The position numbers and the translations under genes were made by a program. A stretch of DNA of 59,177 nucleotides, counting the filler. It is 3 parts of 3 records of this genome, joined end to end, with 100 filler letters (N's around TTAATTAATTAA, not from the genome) between each part and the next. Parts side by side here need not be neighbours in the genome. Positions count along the whole stretch, not along the records: positions 30,757 to 40,620 come from SRR31156797_10035; 2 more parts are not named here. One strand, given 5' to 3'. Every line of letters begins with the position of its first letter. Position 1 is the first letter of the stretch. Positions 30,657 through 40,720 of this stretch are shown one piece after another. The notes beneath the pieces are model-generated. The model was not told the DNA's origin, ran no database searches, and was given only the letters and a program-made list of their open reading frames with translations.

Positions 30657-30756
30657 NNNNNNNNNNNNNNNNNNNNNNNNNNNNNNNNNNNNNNNNNNNN
30701 TTAATTAATTAANNNNNNNNNNNNNNNNNNNNNNNNNNNNNNNNNNNNNNNNNNNN
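30657..30756. other. Artificial contig linker
   Basis: N44-TTAATTAATTAA-N44, with stops in all six frames. Confidence 0.98.
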
Positions 30757-30757
30757 T

Positions 30758-30823
30758 GCTACAGAGATGGTGAAAAAGAAAAATATTATTAGTAATCTAA
30801 TTCAAGCAAGGAACAATAAATGA
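30758..30823 (+). CDS. hoxU: 3' end of the diaphorase Fe-S subunit (partial)
   Basis: ATEMVKKKNIISNLIQARNNK* overlapping the hoxY ATG; position and sequence fit a HoxU C-terminus. Confidence 0.55.
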   Translation, partial: ATEMVKKKNIISNLIQARNNK

Positions 30824-31356
30824 GTAAAGCAAGAGTAGCAACGATTTGGCTTGATGGATGTTCTGGGTGCCATATGTCATTTTTAGATATGGATGAAAGA
30901 CTTGTGGAACTCTCAGAGTATATGGATGTAGTATTTAGTCCATATGTTGATGCAAAAGAGATACCTGAAGATATTGATCTTTTTATTGTTGAGGGTGCTT
31001 TAAGTACAGATCATGATATTAAAATCATTAAAGAGATAAGAAAAAAATCTAAAAAGATACTTGCTCTTGGAGACTGTGCCATTACTGGAAATATCTCAGC
31101 GATGAAAAACCTTGCAGGGACTGAAGCGGTACTAGAAAAAGGGTATTTTGATCTAGCAGATTTTAATAAAGGAAAATATCCCAATAAAGTAGTTCCAAAG
31201 CTTTTAGATAAAGTGATACCTTTAAATGAAGCGATCGATGTGGATTATTTTGTACCAGGATGCCCAACTCCTGCAGATGCGATCTATGAAGTGGTTAAAG
31301 GTGTATTATTAGATAAAGAAGTAGATATTAGCTCATTAACAAGGTTTGGTAAATAG
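30820..31356 (+). CDS. hoxY: Bidirectional NAD-linked [NiFe]-hydrogenase small subunit (group 3d)
   Basis: WLDGCSGCHMSFLDMDE, ALGDCA and PGCPTP; 178 aa. Confidence 0.92.
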   Translation: MSKARVATIWLDGCSGCHMSFLDMDERLVELSEYMDVVFSPYVDAKEIPEDIDLFIVEGALSTDHDIKIIKEIRKKSKKILALGDCAITGNISAMKNLAGTEAVLEKGYFDLADFNKGKYPNKVVPKLLDKVIPLNEAIDVDYFVPGCPTPADAIYEVVKGVLLDKEVDISSLTRFGK

Positions 31357-31357
31357 T

Positions 31358-32788
31358 ATGGAAAAGAAAAAAATTATAATTGATCCTGTCACAAGAATAG
31401 AAGGGCATGCAAAAATAACAGTTGATCTAAATGAAAACGGAAAAGTTGATGATGCACGAATCCATGTAACACAATATAGAGGATTTGAAAAGATGTGTGA
31501 GGGGCGACCTTATACGGAGATGCCCGCTTTGACTGCTAGAACATGTGGAATTTGTCCTGTAAGTCATGTGATCTCTTCAACACAAGCGTGTGATAATATC
31601 TTAGCAGTAAGACCTCCAAAGGCAGCAAGAAACCTTCGACGGATCATCAACTTAGCACAGATCATCCAATCTCATGCTTTAAACTTTTACCATTTAAGTT
31701 CTCCAGATTTTGTTTATGGTTTTGATGCTTCAAAAGAGGATAGAAATATCTTTAAACTAATGCAGACTCATCCAGATATGGCTAAAGATGGGATTCGACT
31801 CAGAGCTTTTGGACAAAAGATCATTGAAGAACTCGGTGGGAAAAGAATCCACCCAGAATGGATCGTGCCAGGAGGCGTAAGTCATAAGATCACAACAGAA
31901 CAAAGAGATAAGATCTTAGCACAAATCCCTGAAGCGATGGATATAGCAAAAAGAACAGTAAAGTATTTTAAAAACAATTTACATAAATTTGAAAAAGAGA
32001 TCAACTCTTTTGCTTCTTTCCCATCTTTGTTTATGGGATTAGTAAATAAAAAAGGAAACTTAGAACATTACGATGGATATCTACGATTTGTTGATGCAAA
32101 TGGAACTATCTTAGAAAATGGAATAGAGCCTAGGTTTTATAAAGATTATATTGGTGAAGCGGTTGAAGAGGATAGTTATCTAAAGTCGCCATACTATAAA
32201 CCTATGGGATATCCTGAGGGGATGTATAGAGTAGGTCCTTTAGCTCGTATGAATATTATCAATAGATGTGGTACTCCTGAAGCTGATGCAGAGTTTGATA
32301 ACTTTAAAAATATCAACAATGGAAAACCAGTACTGAATTCATTTTATTATCACTATGCGCGGCTTATTGAGATCATCTATGGAATTGAGAGAATCGAAGC
32401 GATGCTACGAGATCCAAAAACTATGACTGATAATATTCGTTCACACGCAAATATCAATAGAAATAAAGGGGTAGGGTGTTCAGAAGCTCCAAGAGGGACA
32501 CTTTTCCATGATTATGAAGTAAGTGATAGTGGTGTGATCACAGGAGTGAATCTTATTATTGCTACAGGAAATAATAATCTAGCAATGAATGCAGGGGTAA
32601 AACAAGTAGCTCAAACCTTTGTTGATGGTTCAAACATAACTGATGGAGCTTTAAATAGAGTAGAAGCAGTTATTAGATGTTTTGATCCATGTCTTAGTTG
32701 TTCAACTCACGCTTTAGGGGTTGTCTCTTCACGTATTGAGATTAGAGATCACAATAAAAAAGTTCTGGATATTATAGATAGAAGTTAA
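31358..32788 (+). CDS. hoxH: Bidirectional [NiFe]-hydrogenase large subunit (group 3d)
   Basis: DPVTRIEGH, L1 RTCGICPVSH, L2 DPCLSCSTH with a 25-aa cleavable extension. Confidence 0.95.
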   Translation: MEKKKIIIDPVTRIEGHAKITVDLNENGKVDDARIHVTQYRGFEKMCEGRPYTEMPALTARTCGICPVSHVISSTQACDNILAVRPPKAARNLRRIINLAQIIQSHALNFYHLSSPDFVYGFDASKEDRNIFKLMQTHPDMAKDGIRLRAFGQKIIEELGGKRIHPEWIVPGGVSHKITTEQRDKILAQIPEAMDIAKRTVKYFKNNLHKFEKEINSFASFPSLFMGLVNKKGNLEHYDGYLRFVDANGTILENGIEPRFYKDYIGEAVEEDSYLKSPYYKPMGYPEGMYRVGPLARMNIINRCGTPEADAEFDNFKNINNGKPVLNSFYYHYARLIEIIYGIERIEAMLRDPKTMTDNIRSHANINRNKGVGCSEAPRGTLFHDYEVSDSGVITGVNLIIATGNNNLAMNAGVKQVAQTFVDGSNITDGALNRVEAVIRCFDPCLSCSTHALGVVSSRIEIRDHNKKVLDIIDRS

Positions 32789-33204
32789 TGCGTATCATTG
32801 TAGGGTATGGAAATAGTTTACGGGGTGAGGATGCTTTTGGAGTTGATATTATACAAGCTCTTCAAAAGTACCCCCTAAAAGATACTTTGTTAATTGAAAC
32901 TTTTCAATTAACACCTGAGCTTTGTTTGGAACTCAAAGATGCAGATGAACTCATCTTTGTCGATGCTGCATATAGTAAGTGTGATCATTATAAACTAGCT
33001 TGTCCTCTATCCCAAACATCTCTGAATACTCTTTCTCATCACATCTCACCACAGGTGATCATAGCTTTTTTAAATACTCTTTATAATGTTTATCCAAATT
33101 TTGAGATCTATTCTATGCTCACAAATAGTTTTGATGAGATAAAAGATTTGAAAAAATATCAAGATTGTATAGGGGTTGTTAGCAGTTTTTTCAAAAAATT
33201 ATAG
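32788..33204 (+). CDS. hoxW: Hydrogenase maturation endopeptidase (HoxW-like)
   Basis: GYGNSLRGEDAFG, QLTPEL, IFVDA and SHH. Confidence 0.8.
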   Translation: MRIIVGYGNSLRGEDAFGVDIIQALQKYPLKDTLLIETFQLTPELCLELKDADELIFVDAAYSKCDHYKLACPLSQTSLNTLSHHISPQVIIAFLNTLYNVYPNFEIYSMLTNSFDEIKDLKKYQDCIGVVSSFFKKL

Positions 33205-33243
33205 TAAAGTATATCTATCTGATATTAATTGCGGAGGTTTGAT

Positions 33244-35697
33244 ATGAGAGTAGTTATAGTAGGTGGTGGAATAGCCGCAACATATTTAGCAAATAATATT
33301 AAAAAACAAGATAATAGCATAGAGGTTTTAGTCCTAAGTGATGAAAAATATCCCCCGTATGATAGAATCCATCTTTGTCGTTTAGTAGATGATAAAGAAG
33401 ATGTAGAAGGAATCAAACTTCCCCTTGATCCAACTGTTCGTTTAGAGCTGAATCAAAAAATAGTCAATATTGATACAAAAGCTAAACAAGTATACTCTGA
33501 AACTTCAATGTTTAGTTATGATAAGCTTATTCTTGCTACAGGATCTATTCCAGTTTCTCTTTTTGATATCAATGGTCTTAAAAATGCTAGTGTTTTTAGA
33601 AGTGCTGATGATTGTAATATTATTAAAAATTGTTCAGGAGATAAGTGTTACACAGAAGTTGTGATCGTAGGAAGTGGACCGATTGGGCTTGAACTTCTTG
33701 AAACACTTAATGAAATAGAACGAGTCAAAAATATCACTTTATTAGTAAGAGGAAAACACCTTTATGATAAAACTTTATCAGTTGATTCTATTAAAACTAT
33801 TGAAGAGTGTTATTTAAAATCTGGGAAAATCAAGATATCTTATGAAGATCAGATCGTAGATAAAATAGTTGAAGATGGAGAGATCAAAAAACTGATTACT
33901 AAAAAATTGGAAATTGAGAATCCTTTTTTAGTTTTTGGAGTTGGTATTAAGCCAAATATTGGAGATTTTAGAGAGGTTCTTAGATGTGATAAAGGGATTT
34001 TAACAAATACTTTTATGCAAACAAGTGCTGAAGATGTGTATGCTGTCGGTGAGTGTGCACAAGTAGAAGATTTTGATTTTGTTGCAGGGCATGTAAAAGA
34101 GTGTACGATGCAAGCTGATGTGGCTATTGCACATCTTTTAGGTGAATCAAAAAAAGAGTTTGAACTTGAAGTTGCAGTTGATATGCTTAAAGCTGAAGAG
34201 TTTGATTTGATCGAAGTACGATCTCCAACATTTGACAATGAATTTGAAAAGGTTTTGATCACTTCGAAAAAAGATAATAGAATCGATGAATATTATCTAA
34301 AAGATGATAAGTTAGTGCGATTTATAGGGATCAACTCAAACGTAGATATCGGCTATGTTGAGACCTTGATCCAAGATGAAGATGAAGTAGATATCAACTA
34401 TCTTTACCAAAATAGACTCATAGGTGAACGAGGAAGGCTGATTTGTTCATGTGAACATATCTATCATCAAGATATCATCGATATAGTGGTTCAAAGTGGT
34501 ATTGGAAGTTTTGCGGAATTGAAAGATTTTAGTGAAGCTGGACGGGTATGTGGTCGTTGTAAGATCATGGTAGAAGATGTGATCAAAGAGGCTCAGCCTA
34601 TGATCGATCCAAATATGCCTAGAAAAACACCTGAACAGATTAAACGTGAACGTGAGATCGCAGAGGTTCAAAAAAGAATTGATAAGTTCAATAAACTACA
34701 TCCAAGAAATAATCTTACAACAGATAATCTTGAATCAGCAATGGAAAGCTTAGATATAGGAAAACATGAAGTAAATAGCTGGATCTCTATGGTTACGGCA
34801 AATATGCAGCTTCATCCAAGTTTTGAACAGGTTGTTGAAGGGGCTATTTGTAATCTTAATAAAGTCCCAATCATCTGGCTTGAACTTGCTGATTGTAGTG
34901 GGAACTCAGAAGCTTTTATAAAATCAACCAATCCAGCAGTTGAAGATCTTATCTTTGATTATGTGAGTTTAGATTATCATGAACTTATTATGACTGCAAG
35001 TGGAGATCAAAGTGAAACAATTTTAGAAGATATAATTACCAATCAAAAAGGGGAATATATCCTTTTAGTTGAGGGTGCAATTCCAATGGCAATGGATGGA
35101 AAGTATCTTCGAATAGGCCCTAAAGGGGAAACAGGACTAGAACTTTTACAAAAGTGTGCAAAAGATGCAGCACTTGTTATCTCTGTAGGAAGTTGTGCTC
35201 TTGATGGTGGTGTAGTTGCAGCTGAGCCTAACCCAACTGGAGCAGTTGGGGTAGCAGAAGCTTTAAATAGAGATGATATTATCAATCTTCCAGGATGTCC
35301 AGTCAATCCAACAAATATAGTGGGGACATTGTTATCGTATCTTATGTTTGAAGAATTACCACCACTAGATAAATATAATCGTCCTCTTTGGGCTTATGAA
35401 GGACGAGTTCATGATAACTGTGAAAGACGTGGTCACTATGAACTTGGTGAATTTGTAAAAGAGTGGGGTGATGCTGGAGCGAAAAAAGGGTATTGTCTAT
35501 TTGAGATGGGTTGTAAAGGACCATATGCAAATGTAAACTGCCCTACAATGAAATTCAATAAAGGTGTTAGTTGGCCAGTTCAAGCAGGGCACGGTTGTAT
35601 GGGATGTGTTGAGCCAAAATTCTTTGATAAGTATGCAACAGAGAGAAAGTTTGATGAAAAACAATTTGAAAAAGAGGAAGAGGGTGTAGAATCATGA
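33244..35697 (+). CDS. Fusion of a NirB-like FAD/NAD(P) oxidoreductase, a BFD [2Fe-2S] domain and a [NiFe]-hydrogenase small subunit
   Basis: GGAGG RBS; GGGIAA, PYDRIHL, LILATGS, GSGPIGLE and VYAVGEC; CSC...CGRC; WLELADCSGNSE, GSCA, LPGCP, HDNC...CLFEMGCKGP and NCP...WPVQAGHGCMGC, all in one continuous ORF. Confidence 0.9.
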   Translation: MRVVIVGGGIAATYLANNIKKQDNSIEVLVLSDEKYPPYDRIHLCRLVDDKEDVEGIKLPLDPTVRLELNQKIVNIDTKAKQVYSETSMFSYDKLILATGSIPVSLFDINGLKNASVFRSADDCNIIKNCSGDKCYTEVVIVGSGPIGLELLETLNEIERVKNITLLVRGKHLYDKTLSVDSIKTIEECYLKSGKIKISYEDQIVDKIVEDGEIKKLITKKLEIENPFLVFGVGIKPNIGDFREVLRCDKGILTNTFMQTSAEDVYAVGECAQVEDFDFVAGHVKECTMQADVAIAHLLGESKKEFELEVAVDMLKAEEFDLIEVRSPTFDNEFEKVLITSKKDNRIDEYYLKDDKLVRFIGINSNVDIGYVETLIQDEDEVDINYLYQNRLIGERGRLICSCEHIYHQDIIDIVVQSGIGSFAELKDFSEAGRVCGRCKIMVEDVIKEAQPMIDPNMPRKTPEQIKREREIAEVQKRIDKFNKLHPRNNLTTDNLESAMESLDIGKHEVNSWISMVTANMQLHPSFEQVVEGAICNLNKVPIIWLELADCSGNSEAFIKSTNPAVEDLIFDYVSLDYHELIMTASGDQSETILEDIITNQKGEYILLVEGAIPMAMDGKYLRIGPKGETGLELLQKCAKDAALVISVGSCALDGGVVAAEPNPTGAVGVAEALNRDDIINLPGCPVNPTNIVGTLLSYLMFEELPPLDKYNRPLWAYEGRVHDNCERRGHYELGEFVKEWGDAGAKKGYCLFEMGCKGPYANVNCPTMKFNKGVSWPVQAGHGCMGCVEPKFFDKYATERKFDEKQFEKEEEGVES

Positions 35698-37373
35698 GTT
35701 TAAAAAAAGTTGTAATCGATCCAATTACTAGAATTGAAGGGCACTTAAGAGCTGAAGTTGAAGTAGATGAAAACGGTATCGTACAAGAAGCTTATGTGAG
35801 TGGACAGCTTTTTCGTGGAATTGAGATCATCTTAAAAGATAGAGACCCTAGAGATGCGGGGCTTATGGCTGGAAGAATCTGTGGAGTGTGTACAAACTCA
35901 CATTTTCGTGGAGCGATCCATGCAGTAGAGGATGCCTATAAGATAGATGTTCCTAAAAATGCTGAGATCATAAGAGATCTTATGGCTATGGCACTTTTTA
36001 TCCAAGATCATGTGGTACATTTTTACCATCTTCATATGCTTGATTTTGTTGATGTGACAAGTGCTTTAAGTGCTGACCCTAAAAAGGCATCTAAAGAAGC
36101 CCATAAATACCATGATAAACCGTTTAGAAATTCACATTCACATTATGAAGAGGTATTGGCAAAACTTCAAAAATTTGTTAGTGCAGGGAAACTTGGACCA
36201 TTTTCAAATGGATATTGGGGGCATAGTGATTATAAACTTACACCTGAACAAAACCTGATTTTAGTATCTCATTATCTTGAAGCATTAAAGTTTCAAACAA
36301 ATATCTCAAAAGCAGTTGCAATCTTTGGTGGAAAAACTCCACATCCACAAAGTTTAGTAGTAGGCGGGGTGACAAGTGTTGCAGATATGCTTAATCCACA
36401 AAGATTAAATGACTATATTTTTATTTTAAAAGAGGCAAAAGAGTTTGTTGATCGGGCATATTTACCTGATATGAAGCTTTTAGCTATTGCTTATCGTGAT
36501 GAGATCAAATCTGGACTTGGTCGAGCAAATGGAAATTTTATGGCAGTTGGAGGCTATCCATTTGAGGGAGATCAACGACTTTTTTGTAATGGGATAGTTT
36601 ATAATCATGACTTTTCTAATATTGAAGAGTTTGATGCAACAAAAGTAACTGAAGAGGTAGATCGTGCTTGGTATGACAATGAAGATAAAGAAAAGCCTTT
36701 TTATACAGATCTTAATGAGGATGGAAGTTTAAAAACAGCTAAAAATGATGATAAATACTCATGGATAAAAGCTCCTAGATATGATGGAAAAACTATGGAG
36801 AGTGGCCCATTAGCTAGGGTACTTATTAGTTATAGTAAAAAGAATAAACTTATTCAGCCTTTTGTCGATGAGTTTTTACAAGAGACAGATCTAGAACTTC
36901 TGGATCTTTCAACTACAGTTGGAAGAAATTGTGCAAGAGCGATTGAAACAATTTATGTATGTGAATATATTTTTAAACTAGTAAGTCGACTCACTCAAAA
37001 TATTAAATACTATGATACTGATACTTGGGGAAGATATGATTTTAATTCACTTCCAACAGATACAAAAGGAAAAATGTTTCTTGAAGTTCCAAGAGGAGTA
37101 TTAGGACATTTTGTAAATATAAAAGATGCAAAGATCTCAAATTATAGTGTAATAGCTCCAACCACTTGGAATGCTACACCTAAAAATTATGATGGGATAA
37201 GAGGAGCATATGAAGAAGCTCTTGTAGGCATAAAAGTAGAAGATACTTCAAAACCTCTTGAAGTTTTAAAAGTACTTCACTCTTTTGATCCATGTTTGGC
37301 ATGTGCTGTACATATTGTTGATACAAAAGGGAAAGAGCTCAGCAGATATAAGATCAAGAGTTTAACTTTATAG
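35694..37373 (+). CDS. Group-1-type [NiFe]-hydrogenase large subunit
   Basis: DPITRIEGH, RDPRDA, L1 RICGVC, HVVHFYHLH, YSWIKAPR, L2 DPCLACAVH with a 19-aa extension; ATGA-coupled to the fusion gene. Confidence 0.93.
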   Translation: MSLKKVVIDPITRIEGHLRAEVEVDENGIVQEAYVSGQLFRGIEIILKDRDPRDAGLMAGRICGVCTNSHFRGAIHAVEDAYKIDVPKNAEIIRDLMAMALFIQDHVVHFYHLHMLDFVDVTSALSADPKKASKEAHKYHDKPFRNSHSHYEEVLAKLQKFVSAGKLGPFSNGYWGHSDYKLTPEQNLILVSHYLEALKFQTNISKAVAIFGGKTPHPQSLVVGGVTSVADMLNPQRLNDYIFILKEAKEFVDRAYLPDMKLLAIAYRDEIKSGLGRANGNFMAVGGYPFEGDQRLFCNGIVYNHDFSNIEEFDATKVTEEVDRAWYDNEDKEKPFYTDLNEDGSLKTAKNDDKYSWIKAPRYDGKTMESGPLARVLISYSKKNKLIQPFVDEFLQETDLELLDLSTTVGRNCARAIETIYVCEYIFKLVSRLTQNIKYYDTDTWGRYDFNSLPTDTKGKMFLEVPRGVLGHFVNIKDAKISNYSVIAPTTWNATPKNYDGIRGAYEEALVGIKVEDTSKPLEVLKVLHSFDPCLACAVHIVDTKGKELSRYKIKSLTL

Positions 37374-38726: not shown

Positions 38727-38807
38727 AAACTTTAACCTTTTTTAAATTTTGGCTATTGTATCTATATAAATATTGTAATAAAGTAAAATTTGGTTAAAAT
38801 TTTTCTT

Positions 38808-40620
38808 ATGAAAAAAGCTTTAATAGTAGGATTAATATTAGCAACATGTTTTTTATTAATTCATCAATTTTATTATAAACCAAACCATAATCAACTCACT
38901 CAAAAAATCTATCTCCAGTCTAGCAAAGAGTTAAAAAGTATTTTTCAAGAAGAGGTTGCTAAAAAGCAAGGAAGAACAGCAGCACTTACATATATCTTAA
39001 GTCAAGATAGTGGGGTAATAGAAGCTCTTTTAACAAAACAAAACACTTCCATAGATTATGAAACACTAATTGAAGGGATTGAGGCATTTAGTGATTATAA
39101 AAATCTTTGGATACAAATCATTGATAAAGATGGATATAGTTTTTATAGAAGCTGGACTAAAAAAGTTGGAGACCATGCTGCAAGTGCTAGAGTAGATATC
39201 CAAGAGATGATCAAAAATCCAAGACCTATGAAGCAGGTGAGTACAGGAAGATTTGATATGACCTTTAAAACAATGCTTCCTCTTTATCATAATAAAGAGT
39301 ATATTGGAATGATAGAGCTTATTTCCCATTTTAATTCCATAGCCAATGAATTGAAAAAAGAAAATATAGAGCCTATTTTTGCAGTAGATAAAAGTTATAC
39401 AAAAAGATTTATAAAACCTTTTACAGGACTTTTTATAGGAGAAAACTATATAGCTAACTTAAATGCTTCAAAAACTCTTATGAAAAAAGTTGAAAAGTTT
39501 GGAATTGAGAAGTTTTTATATCTGGGTGAGTATCTTTTATTTGAAGATTATTTAGTAACCACTGATACAATCAAAAATATTAAAAATCAGCCAATGGGAT
39601 ATTTTATTTTATTTAAGAAAAAAGATTCTATTGATATGACAATTTTACAAGAGTTTCAAGTAGCATATTTGCAAAAGATCACAGGGATCATGTTGATCCT
39701 TATTTTAGCGATCCTTTTATATATCAATAGAAACTATGTGAAAACTCTCAATGCAGAAGTATTAGAAAAAACGAAAAAGATCAAACGGCAAAAAGAGAAT
39801 CTCTCAAGACTTTTACGAATATATGATAAACATGTGATTTTTTCAAAAACAGATCCAAATGGTACTATTACCCATGCCAGTGAGGCTTTTTGTAAAGTAA
39901 GTGGGTATACAAAAAAAGAGTTAATTGGACAAAATCATAATATTATCCGTCATCCAGATATGCCAAAATCTGCCTTTAAATATCTTTGGAAAGAGATTAA
40001 AAGAGGTAATAGTGTAAAACTTGAAGTAAAAAATAAAACAAAAGATGGTGGATATTATTGGGTTGTAGCTGAAATCGAACCAGAATATGATAAACATGGT
40101 GTTTTAGTTGGATATGTTGCTGTAAGGGATGATATCACTGCAACAAAAGATATTGAAGAGATACAAAAAGAGATTATCTTTACTATGGGCTCTATTGGGG
40201 AGAGTAGATCATTAGAAACTGGAAATCATGTAAAAAGAGTTGCTGAGTATTCTAAAATCTTAGCAGAACTTTGCGGACTTTCCAAAGATGAAGCAGAGAT
40301 GTTAAGACAAGCAAGTCCAATGCATGATATTGGAAAAGTAGCAATTCCTGATTCTATATTAAATAAACCGGGAAAGCTCACTGGTGAAGAGATGGTTATT
40401 ATGCAAAGTCATGTATTAAAAGGGTATGATATGTTAAAAGTATCCAATAGGACTCTTTTAAAAACAGCAGCTATAGTAGCTCTTGAACATCACGAAAAAT
40501 GGGATGGCACAGGATATCCTACTGGATTAAAAGGAGAAGATATCCATATCTATGGAAGAATCACCGCTATTGCAGATGTCTTTGATGCACTAGGAAGTGA
40601 TAGATGTTATAAAAAAGCTT
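38808..40620 (+). CDS. Sensor-PAS-HD-GYP c-di-GMP phosphodiesterase (3' truncated by the gap)
   Basis: Two TM segments flanking a periplasmic domain; PAS (HNIIRHPDMP); ETGNHVKRV, MHDIGK, HHEKWDGTGYP and ADVFDAL. Confidence 0.9.
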
Positions 40621-40720
40621 NNNNNNNNNNNNNNNNNNNNNNNNNNNNNNNNNNNNNNNNNNNNTTAATTAATTAANNNNNNNNNNNNNNNNNNNNNNNN
40701 NNNNNNNNNNNNNNNNNNNN
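40621..40720. other. Artificial contig linker
   Basis: N44-TTAATTAATTAA-N44. Confidence 0.98.

What the first reader, a model, noticed from the sequence alone, without database searches (positions are those of the whole stretch)
33244..37373. Group-1b-derived [NiFe]-hydrogenase rebuilt as a cytoplasmic flavin/NAD(P)-coupled enzyme by fusion to a NirB-like reductase and a BFD domain
Seen in the sequence: one ORF of about 817 aa joins a NirB/rubredoxin-reductase-like FAD/NAD(P) domain (GGGIAA, GSGPIG, YAVGEC), a BFD [2Fe-2S] motif (CSC at 34444, CGRC at 34549) and a complete three-cluster hydrogenase small subunit. It is translationally coupled to a large subunit with group-1 L1/L2 motifs (RICGVC, DPCLACAVH). 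The small subunit ends in an acidic soluble tail with no TM anchor, and no cytochrome b (HydC) gene follows. Established knowledge: group 1b enzymes are Tat-exported, membrane-anchored and quinone-linked, whereas NAD(P) coupling is the hallmark of group 3 enzymes. Inference: this is a two-subunit soluble H2:NAD(P)+ oxidoreductase with an electron path NiFe - 3 FeS - BFD 2Fe2S - FAD. That would be an independent route to pyridine-nucleotide coupling, sitting directly behind a conventional hoxYH. I cannot confirm whether it has already been described.
Basis: partly seen in the sequence, partly recalled or inferred. Interest (0 to 1): 0.88.

Follow-up and report, generated by a model that had tools for sequence, protein, structure and literature searches.

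The report
Flavoprotein-fused cytoplasmic nickel-iron hydrogenase, already described
This bacterium encodes a two-gene nickel-iron hydrogenase whose small subunit is fused to an NAD(P)H-type flavoprotein, so it could pass electrons from hydrogen to NAD(P)+ inside the cell; the design was described from genomes in 2006 and has never been shown to work.

Summary
ORF 33244-35697 (817 aa) joins a FAD/NAD(P) reductase, a BFD [2Fe-2S] domain and a three-cluster [NiFe] small subunit. It overlaps (ATGA) a group-1-type large subunit at 35694-37373. There is no Tat signal, no membrane anchor and no cytochrome b gene.

The fusion is not an assembly artefact. All 120 listed homologues share the architecture, 26 (+1 partial) of 401 Campylobacterota genomes carry it, and a contig from another study bridges all the domain junctions.

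It is not new. Scott et al. 2006 described the same two-domain small subunit in Thiomicrospira crunogena XCL-2 and proposed direct H2:NAD(H) coupling. Hansen & Perner 2016 noted it in Arcobacter, Sulfurimonas, Sulfurovum and Sulfuricurvum. This scan also met it in three earlier windows.

No activity has been shown; XCL-2 showed no H2 uptake.

Added here:
- The interdomain linker is a decayed Tat signal peptide.
- The proximal-cluster Cys-to-Asn change is shared with canonical exported small subunits of the phylum.
- A Val-Arg-Gly signature hints at NADP(H).
- In some relatives the genes abut ech and hoxEFUYH clusters.
- A sister strain has a 2.18-kb deletion in the gene pair.

The window is three contigs joined by N linkers.

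The parts
30758..30820 (+). 3' end (21 codons) of hoxU, cut by the contig start at 30757
   Evidence: tblastn with HoxU of the sister strain L022: 21 of 21 residues identical. The N-linker ends at 30756.
30820..31356 (+). hoxY-like small subunit of a group-3-type [NiFe]-hydrogenase (178 aa, four Cys, proximal cluster only)
   Evidence: Pfam Oxidored_q6. NCBIfam VhuG-like over residues 2-171. 98.9% identical to L022 HoxY, which follows NuoE-, NuoF- and NuoG-like genes.
31346..32788 (+). hoxH-like large subunit (480 aa)
   Evidence: Best solved matches are 7t2r_D (524 bits) and 5xf9_D, an NAD-reducing hydrogenase (383 bits).
32788..33204 (+). hydrogenase maturation endopeptidase (hoxW-like, 138 aa)
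   Evidence: NCBIfam TIGR00072, E 2e-11, below its cut-off.
33244..34428 (+). FAD/NAD(P)H reductase module of the fused small subunit (aa 1-395)
   Evidence: Pyr_redox_2 over residues 1-295. Foldseek best matches are putidaredoxin reductase and BphA4, TM-score normalised to target length 0.81-0.85. G7, G9, A12, G143, G145, P146, R169 and C45 are invariant in 57 sequences.
34438..34590 (+). BFD-like [2Fe-2S] domain (aa 399-449)
   Evidence: Pfam Fer2_BFD, E 9e-10. C401, C403, C436 and C439 are invariant in 57 sequences.
34636..34863 (+). Interdomain linker (aa 465-540), a decayed Tat signal presequence
   Evidence: It aligns colinearly with the presequences of 21 canonical Campylobacterota small subunits. 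The twin arginine is replaced by KH, KK, KS, EH and similar pairs, and the hydrophobic core has become polar. Canonical small subunits match the query from about residue 470 onward.
34864..35697 (+). [NiFe]-hydrogenase small-subunit domain with an acidic tail and no anchor
   Evidence: Pfam and NCBIfam. PDB alignment. Ligand positions: proximal C551, N554 (in place of Cys), C651, C685; distal H723, C726, C751, C757; medial C766, C785, C788 plus P778.
35694..37373 (+). Group-1-type [NiFe]-hydrogenase large subunit (559 aa), ATGA overlap with the small subunit
   Evidence: PF00374 full length, E 7e-195. Best solved match 1h2a_L, 482 bits. 49% identical (571 bits) to the canonical large subunit of G001. 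RICGVC and DPCLACAVH plus a 19-aa extension.

Best explanation
This is a two-gene, cytoplasmic derivative of the membrane-bound, Tat-exported uptake [NiFe]-hydrogenases of Campylobacterota. A putidaredoxin-reductase/NirB-type FAD-NAD(P)H reductase carrying its own BFD [2Fe-2S] domain was fused in front of the small subunit. The Tat signal then decayed into a linker, and the C-terminal anchor and the cytochrome b partner were lost.

Proposed electron path: H2 is split at the Ni-Fe site. Electrons pass through the proximal cluster (three Cys plus Asn554), the medial [3Fe-4S] cluster and the distal [4Fe-4S] cluster. They then reach the BFD [2Fe-2S] cluster, the FAD and finally NAD(P)+. NADP+ is probably preferred, because of the invariant Val-Arg-Gly at the coenzyme-specificity position.

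The reaction may run either way in vivo. It could supply reductant from H2, or act as a valve that oxidises NAD(P)H to H2.

Shown here: the architecture, conservation of every ligand position, loss of the export and anchor features, a single origin, and purifying selection.

Inferred: which cofactors are bound, the electron path, the coenzyme, and the direction.
For: - Domain architecture.
- All 120 listed homologues (75-91% identical, 795-818 aa) carry the same four Pfam domains.
- Full-length fused matches occur in 26 genomes, plus 1 partial at a contig end, of 401 Campylobacterota genomes sampled.
- The large subunit directly follows the fused small subunit in 17 of 24 related loci. In six of the other seven the contig ends within 0.6 kb of the small-subunit match. 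The seventh (L022) has a deletion.
- In 57 aligned sequences the FAD and NAD(P) glycine motifs, the four BFD cysteines and 10 of the 11 canonical FeS ligand positions that are kept are invariant. C685 is present in at least 90%.
- Non-synonymous differences are far below synonymous ones in all four segments against the two closest loci (pN 0.007-0.098 against pS 0.64-0.77). Synonymous sites are saturated.
- The predicted N-terminal module (pLDDT about 80-95) is closest to [2Fe-2S]-ferredoxin reductases: putidaredoxin reductase and BphA4, TM-score normalised to target length 0.81-0.85. CoA-disulfide reductases score 0.70-0.73.
- BphA4 variants carrying T176R/Q177G score 6-7 bits better against this protein than wild-type BphA4 (58.6, 58.1 and 57.7 bits against 51.6). 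This fits V168-R169-G170 here.
- The Tat vestige, the absence of an anchor and the absence of cytochrome b.
- The same reading is in print: Scott et al. 2006 (PMC1635747, passages).
Against: - No biochemical evidence exists for any member.
- T. crunogena XCL-2 has this enzyme as its only hydrogenase. It consumed no H2 under any condition tested, and neither its soluble nor its membrane proteins showed uptake activity (PMC4744846, passages).
- The H2 uptake of strain SP-41 is attributed to a second, group-1d enzyme (PMC6501319).
- Hansen & Perner judged the FeS motifs non-canonical and raised the possibility of an inactive relic.
- One proximal-cluster Cys is Asn.
- A sister strain carries a 2.18-kb frameshifting deletion, so the enzyme is dispensable there.
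- The NADP(H) call rests on three residues. It also rests on my recollection of why the BphA4 mutants were made.
- The AlphaFold model of the small-subunit domain is poor (pLDDT 30-45). No geometry between the BFD and distal clusters could be obtained.
Confidence: 0.6

Rival explanations
1. The flavoprotein module does not deliver electrons to NAD(P)+. Instead it reduces another acceptor at the flavin and the invariant Cys45, such as a persulfide, polysulfide, CoA disulfide, O2 or peroxide. H2 (and perhaps NAD(P)H) would be the donor, making this a sulfhydrogenase-like or detoxifying enzyme.
For: - C45 is invariant in 57 sequences. It sits in the PYDRIHLC loop next to the flavin-binding fold.
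- The best sequence matches in the PDB are CoA-disulfide / CoA-persulfide reductases (67 bits). NADH peroxidase and NADH oxidase are also hit.
- The hosts live on sulfur compounds.
Against: - In the HMMER alignments the catalytic Cys of the CoA-disulfide reductases falls on I42/H43, not on C45. C45 aligns with the Ser of the 'LS' motif of a rubredoxin-reductase-type enzyme (1xhc).
- By fold, ferredoxin reductases fit better than CoA-disulfide reductases.
- NCBIfam's best model is the NirB N-terminal part including BFD (154 bits).
- The complete NAD(P) dinucleotide motif is invariant.
Confidence: 0.15
2. The gene pair is an evolutionary relic. After losing export, anchor and one cluster ligand the enzyme is inactive or barely active, and it is on its way to loss.
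For: - XCL-2 shows no H2 uptake in any fraction. Hansen & Perner 2016 suggested mutational decay.
- The 2.18-kb deletion in sister strain L022 is also seen as a contig joint in run X2.
- Only 27 of 401 genomes of the phylum carry it.
Against: - pN is far below pS in every module, including the linker.
- All remaining ligand positions are invariant in 57 sequences that span 53-91% identity.
- The Asn at the proximal cluster is not decay. It is shared with 11 of the 21 canonical Tat- and anchor-bearing small subunits that I picked from the listing.
- The genes keep strong ribosome-binding sites and translational coupling.
Confidence: 0.08
3. It is an H2 sensor or regulatory hydrogenase rather than a catalytic one.
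For: - It is cytoplasmic and two-subunit.
- Two-component genes lie near it in several loci (L008, L019, L020, L021).
Against: - The large subunit keeps the C-terminal extension that is cleaved in catalytic enzymes. That regulatory hydrogenases lack this extension is recalled.
- The large subunit is group-1-like, not group-2-like.
- A fused NAD(P)/FAD module has no evident role in sensing.
- The sister genome G001 has a separate 423-aa hydrogenase large-subunit-like ORF next to its canonical operon.
Confidence: 0.04

Closest known systems
'Hydrogenase gene cluster I' of Hydrogenovibrio (Thiomicrospira) crunogenus XCL-2 and SP-41 (Tcr2037/2038). Sources: Scott et al. 2006, PMC1635747; Hansen & Perner 2016, PMC4744846; Gonnella et al. 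2019, PMC6501319.
   Same: - The small subunit is about 813 aa, with a pyridine-nucleotide-disulphide-oxidoreductase domain carrying FAD and NADH sites.
- There is no Tat motif and no cytochrome b gene.
- The large subunit has group-1b L1/L2 motifs and forms a clade with epsilonproteobacterial ones.
- The authors state that Arcobacter nitrofigilis, Sulfurimonas autotrophica, Sulfurovum sp. AR and Sulfuricurvum kujiense encode the same unusual small subunit.
   Different: - The host is different (an Arcobacteraceae-like genome; nearest loci are 90-91% identical).
- Here the pair follows hoxYHW instead of sitting among hyp genes.
- The passages I read do not mention the BFD domain, the Tat vestige or the Asn.
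- I could not compare sequences directly, because no Hydrogenovibrio sequence was in hand.
Canonical membrane-bound uptake [NiFe]-hydrogenases of Campylobacterota (HydABC type: Tat signal, C-terminal anchor, cytochrome b)
   Same: - The large subunit is 49% identical.
- The small-subunit domain is 44-48% identical.
- The three-cluster layout is the same.
- The DC(A/S)GN(S/T)E proximal motif is the same as in 11 of the 21 canonical small subunits I picked.
- The presequence is colinear with the linker.
   Different: - The twin arginine is lost.
- The anchor and cytochrome b are lost.
- About 460 aa of reductase plus BFD have been added.
NAD(P)-linked group 3 [NiFe]-hydrogenases (HoxEFUYH, group 3d; sulfhydrogenase, group 3b)
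   Same: Both are cytoplasmic and would couple H2 to a pyridine nucleotide through FeS clusters and a flavin.
   Different: - Group 3 enzymes use separate diaphorase subunits. In the sister strain's Hox cluster these are NuoE-, NuoF- and NuoG-like.
- Their large subunits belong to another group. The hoxH-like gene next door matches the fused enzyme's large subunit at only 37% over 119 residues.
NirB / putidaredoxin-reductase-type FAD reductases with a BFD [2Fe-2S] domain
   Same: The N-terminal 450 aa match the NirB N-terminal part and the ferredoxin-reductase fold.
   Different: There is no sirohaem or nitrite-reductase domain. A hydrogenase small subunit takes its place.

Membership tests
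Group 1 (1b-like) [NiFe]-hydrogenase | Large subunit with group-1 L1/L2 motifs and a full-length PF00374 match | tested here: met
   RICGVCTNSH and DPCLACAVH. PF00374 over residues 41-540, E 7e-195. Best solved match 1h2a_L, 482 bits. HydDB itself could not be run.
Group 1 (1b-like) [NiFe]-hydrogenase | Small subunit with proximal, medial and distal cluster ligands | tested here: inconclusive
   11 of 12 canonical positions are kept. The second proximal Cys is an invariant Asn. The same Asn occurs in canonical exported small subunits of the phylum.
Group 1 (1b-like) [NiFe]-hydrogenase | Tat signal peptide on the small subunit | tested here: not met
   The RR is replaced and the presequence lies internally, after 460 aa.
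Group 1 (1b-like) [NiFe]-hydrogenase | Membrane anchor and cytochrome b partner | tested here: not met
   The C-terminus is an acidic tail. No PF01292 and no tblastn hit in the window.
XCL-2-type flavoprotein-fused hydrogenase (Scott 2006) | Small subunit of about 810 aa with an N-terminal FAD/NAD(H) oxidoreductase domain | tested here: met
   817 aa, Pyr_redox_2 over residues 1-295.
XCL-2-type flavoprotein-fused hydrogenase (Scott 2006) | No Tat motif, no cytochrome b, group-1b-type large subunit | tested here: met
XCL-2-type flavoprotein-fused hydrogenase (Scott 2006) | Direct sequence relatedness to Tcr2037/2038 | not tested
   No Hydrogenovibrio sequence was retrieved. The link rests on the papers' statements that Arcobacter, Sulfurimonas, Sulfurovum and Sulfuricurvum encode the same small subunit, and on my hits in those genera.
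Group 3d/3b NAD(P)-linked hydrogenases | Separate diaphorase subunits and a group-3 large subunit | tested here: not met
   The large subunit is group-1-like. The reductase module is FAD-type and fused.
NirB-type reductase module | FAD and NAD(P) dinucleotide motifs plus a four-Cys BFD domain | tested here: met
NirB-type reductase module | Sirohaem/[4Fe-4S] nitrite-reductase domain | tested here: not met
   The NirB model matches only positions 1-467 of 794.
CoA-disulfide reductase / NADH peroxidase family | Redox-active Cys at the conserved active-site position | tested here: inconclusive
   Invariant C45 lies 2-3 residues from the aligned catalytic Cys, in a low-confidence stretch of the alignment. 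The fold fits ferredoxin reductases better.

The most novel reading that the evidence does not exclude
The fused enzyme is the NADP(H) arm of a cytoplasmic 'hydrogen hub'. In this lineage three cytoplasm-facing hydrogenases are encoded head to tail: Ech (ferredoxin-linked, membrane-bound), HoxEFUYH (NAD-linked) and the fused enzyme (NADP-linked). In relatives, ech directly abuts the fused genes. Through intracellular H2 they would equilibrate the ferredoxin, NAD and NADP pools, for example by supplying reduced ferredoxin and NADPH for reductive-TCA carbon fixation. It would be the first pyridine-nucleotide-reducing hydrogenase derived from group 1.
Probability: 0.15. Interest if true: 0.7.

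Novelty: new member of a known kind. Interest (0 to 1): 0.35.

Why it matters
If active, a hydrogenase that reduces NAD(P)+ with only two polypeptides would be the simplest known H2-to-pyridine-nucleotide catalyst, which makes it attractive for cofactor regeneration. It would also show that pyridine-nucleotide coupling arose a second time, from an exported respiratory enzyme.

Genome surveys currently count it as an ordinary 'Group I' uptake hydrogenase (PMC4584964 and PMC7952632). This may overstate the respiratory H2-oxidation capacity of Sulfurimonas-type bacteria.

The idea is about twenty years old and still untested, so the value now lies in the experiment rather than in the discovery.

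Tried and rejected
- Complex prediction of the reductase+BFD module (aa 1-460) against the small-subunit domain (aa 535-817) gave no verdict. The scores were 0.07 and 0.02 against a mark of 0.34, and the alignment was not used. This is no evidence either way.
- AlphaFold2 of the whole 817-aa protein with 57 sequences gave mean pLDDT 67.6. The N-terminal module is good, but the small-subunit domain is at pLDDT 30-45, so no interdomain geometry can be read.
- I first read the HsdM/Fic genes upstream of hoxY as an island that had replaced hoxEFU, and built a 'reciprocal decay' idea on that. I rejected it. The junction is an artificial N44-TTAATTAATTAA-N44 contig linker, and the contig simply starts inside hoxU.
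- I first took Asn554 for a signature unique to the fused family. I rejected that too: 11 of the 21 canonical small subunits fetched have it, and so do 10 of the 63 representatives in which the motif could be located (87 of the 150 had no locatable motif).
- No whole genome is held for the window, so hyp genes, a second protease and other hydrogenases of this organism could not be looked for.
- The look-up of sequencing runs listed no RNA holder.
- The promoter/terminator scan was uninformative in this AT-rich DNA.
- The careful tree did not finish, so only the quick tree is reported. Only 6 of the 11 Asn-type canonical rows passed my domain-cutting pattern.
- Ka/Ks ratios are unreliable because synonymous sites are saturated. 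Only pN against pS is used.
- A short-region PDB search meant to display the BphA4 alignment returned only CoA-disulfide reductases.
- Literature searches for a biochemical characterisation found none. Supplementary files, such as the operon figure S5 of PMC4744846, were not seen.

Full report
**1. What is in the sequence**

ORF 33244-35697 (+) encodes 817 aa. The ATG at 33244 follows a GGAGG by 7 nt, and all homologues start MRVVIVGGG.

Pfam finds four domains:
- Pyr_redox_2, residues 1-295.
- Fer2_BFD, residues 399-449.
- Oxidored_q6, residues 551-698.
- NiFe_hyd_SSU_C, residues 718-798.

NCBIfam finds the NirB N-terminal part (residues 3-449) and hydA (residues 494-811).

The next ORF, 35694-37373, overlaps by ATGA. 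It is a full-length [NiFe] large subunit (PF00374, E 7e-195). It has RICGVC, and DPCLACAVH followed by a 19-aa extension.

The small subunit ends in an acidic tail. The downstream gene is a convergent NlpC/P60 gene, and no cytochrome b is found in the window.

**2. The window is a concatenation**

Two N44-TTAATTAATTAA-N44 linkers, at 30657-30756 and 40621-40720, join three contigs. The hydrogenase contig is 30757-40620.

It begins with the last 21 codons of hoxU. These are followed by hoxY-like, hoxH-like and protease genes, and then the fused pair.

A sister strain (L022, about 97% nucleotide identity) shows the fuller arrangement on one strand: echCDEF, then NuoE-like, NuoF-like and NuoG-like genes, then hoxY, hoxH, the protease and the fused small subunit.

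The best solved relative of the hoxH-like protein is 7t2r_D (524 bits), followed by the NAD-reducing hydrogenase 5xf9_D.

**3. The fusion is real and conserved**

- All 120 listed homologues carry the four domains. They are 75-91% identical and 795-818 aa long. In all, 722 proteins had E <= 0.001 among 7999 scored candidates.
- 24 genome loci were fetched, from Arcobacteraceae, Sulfurimonas, Sulfuricurvum and Sulfurovum assemblies.
- The large subunit follows directly in 17 of these 24 loci. Six further contigs end within 0.6 kb after the small-subunit match, and one (L022) has a deletion.
- In an even sample of 401 genomes of the phylum, 26 have a full-length fused match and one has a partial match at a contig end. 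The rest match only the small-subunit domain.
- At 50% clustering only one full-length representative appears among the best 150, so the family is compact.
- The ESM Atlas holds two clusters with this architecture, of 322 and 69 members.
- Contigs of a run that may be the source reproduce the whole 9864-bp contig. A contig from another study's microbial-mat runs spans 32956-37056 at about 92% identity, and so bridges every domain junction.
- Against the two closest loci, pN is 0.007-0.098 and pS is 0.64-0.77 in all four segments. Synonymous sites are saturated.

**4. Where it comes from**

- The large subunit is 49% identical (571 bits) to the canonical large subunit of a sister genome. That canonical subunit sits with a Tat-bearing small subunit and a cytochrome b gene. 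This exceeds the best solved match, D. vulgaris 1h2a (482 bits).
- I picked 20 canonical small subunits from the listing and added one from G001. All 21 have an RR motif: 20 by pattern, and the 21st is visible in the alignment. They carry a hydrophobic C-terminal anchor, except the shorter L036, whose C-terminus differs.
- Residues about 465-545 of the fused protein align colinearly with their presequence. The RR is replaced by KH, KK, KS, EH or similar in the 14 fused rows that were cut correctly. A 15th row was mis-cut by my pattern. The hydrophobic core has turned polar. The linker is therefore a fossil Tat signal.
- A quick maximum-likelihood tree of small-subunit domains was built from 41 rows. 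Only 6 of the 11 Asn-type canonical rows passed my cutting pattern. It puts all 15 fused rows in one clade (SH-aLRT 100). Its position relative to the two canonical types is unresolved.

**5. Cofactor sites**

In 57 sequences the following are invariant:
- G7, G9, A12 (FAD motif).
- G143, G145, P146 and R169 (NAD(P) motif).
- C45.
- C401, C403, C436, C439 (BFD domain).
- C551, N554, C651 (proximal cluster; C685 is present in at least 90%).
- H723, C726, C751, C757 (distal cluster).
- C766, C785, C788 and P778 (medial cluster, [3Fe-4S] type). The assignment of ligand roles is recalled from standard enzymes.

The PDB alignment shows N554 in the place of the second Cys of the CxxC motif. This Asn is not special to the fusion. 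Of the 21 canonical small subunits, 11 have it and 10 have Cys. Among the representatives in which the motif could be located, 47 have Cys, 10 Asn, 4 Asp, 1 Glu and 1 Pro (63 of 150 located).

**6. The reductase module**

The AlphaFold model is confident for residues 1-390. Foldseek places that part with putidaredoxin reductase, BphA4, toluene-dioxygenase reductase and similar [2Fe-2S]-ferredoxin reductases (TM-score normalised to target length 0.78-0.85). These rank ahead of CoA-disulfide reductases (0.70-0.73).

BphA4 variants with T176R/Q177G score better against this protein than wild type does: 57.7-58.6 bits against 51.6 bits. This matches V168-R169-G170 here. I recall that those variants were made to switch BphA4 from NADH to NADPH. 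If that is right, the family probably prefers NADP(H).

**7. What is known**

- Scott et al. 2006 (PMC1635747, passages read) described the two-domain small subunit of T. crunogena XCL-2. They noted FAD and NADH sites, no twin-arginine leader and no diaphorase. [quoted passage not shown]
- Hansen & Perner 2016 (PMC4744846, passages) gave its length as 813 aa and placed the large subunit in group 1b with Epsilonproteobacteria. [quoted passage not shown] They found its FeS motifs non-canonical. They detected no H2 uptake in XCL-2.
- Gonnella et al. 2019 (PMC6501319, passages) showed that SP-41 has an additional group-1d enzyme, which explains its membrane-bound activity.
- Sulfurimonas reviews count the enzyme among 'Group I' hydrogenases without comment (PMC4584964 section 11; PMC7952632 passages).
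- Three earlier windows of this scan reported the same design. Two of those notes led me to the 2006 paper, which I then read.
- My searches found no biochemical characterisation. PMC11439405 (passages) adds none. Supplements were not available.

**8. Context and dispensability**

An ech (group-4-type, six-gene) cluster abuts the fused genes in 4 of 24 loci: L001 and L006 upstream, L008 downstream, and L022 upstream of hox. HypF or maturation-protease genes lie nearby in eight others.

L022, and a contig of run X2, lack window positions 34132/34134 to 36312. This deletion of about 2.18 kb removes the end of the reductase, the BFD domain, the small-subunit domain and the first 200 or so codons of the large subunit. 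L022 and X2 may derive from the same data.

**9. Verdict**

The mechanistic reading is reasonable and is now better grounded in sequence. It is neither new nor tested. The only published experiments that bear on it are negative. This window holds one more member of a known but uncharacterised enzyme type.

Noticed in passing
window 30657-30756 and 40621-40720: Two N44-TTAATTAATTAA-N44 spacers show that the window is three contigs joined artificially. Gene neighbourhoods across them (Fic/HsdM next to hoxY; the PAS/HD gene next to RNase III) are not real.
   Followed up: yes
L022 7851-9811 (equivalent to window 34132-36312 missing); run X2 contig joint 34131->36313: A sister strain about 97% identical carries a frameshifting deletion of about 2.18 kb. 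It removes most of the fused small subunit and the start of the large subunit, while its hoxEFUYHW and ech genes are intact.
   Followed up: partly
L022 1-7826; L001 3057-7998; L006 3054-8001; L008 12091-17022: An Ech-type six-gene membrane hydrogenase cluster directly abuts the fused hydrogenase genes in 4 of 24 related loci. In L022 the order is ech, hoxEFUYHW, then the fused genes, all on one strand.
   Followed up: partly
L025 4152-5435 (-) and L027-L036: Canonical small subunits of Campylobacterota, with a Tat signal and (except the shorter L036) a C-terminal anchor, come in two types. One has Asn in place of the second proximal-cluster cysteine (DCAGN(S/T)E, 11 of 21 fetched). The other has the standard ECTGCSES (10 of 21).
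   Followed up: partly
P0122, P0276: Two proteins of 600 and 604 aa match residues 195-807 of the fused subunit only. They lack the FAD-binding start. This may be a gene-call artefact or a shorter variant.
   Followed up: no
runs X3/X4, window 35657-35671: A related microbial-mat strain has 91 other letters in place of 13 at the junction between the small and large subunits. The ATGA overlap is therefore not universal.
   Followed up: no
P0134, P0139, P0141, P0150, P0165, P0248, P0261: Several hydrogenase small subunits of 580-808 aa match only through their N-terminal halves. Other, C-terminal fusions of small subunits therefore exist.
   Followed up: no
window 38790-40620: A dCache/PAS/HD-domain signalling gene is cut by the contig end. 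Its apparent C-terminus in the ORF list runs into the N linker.
   Followed up: no
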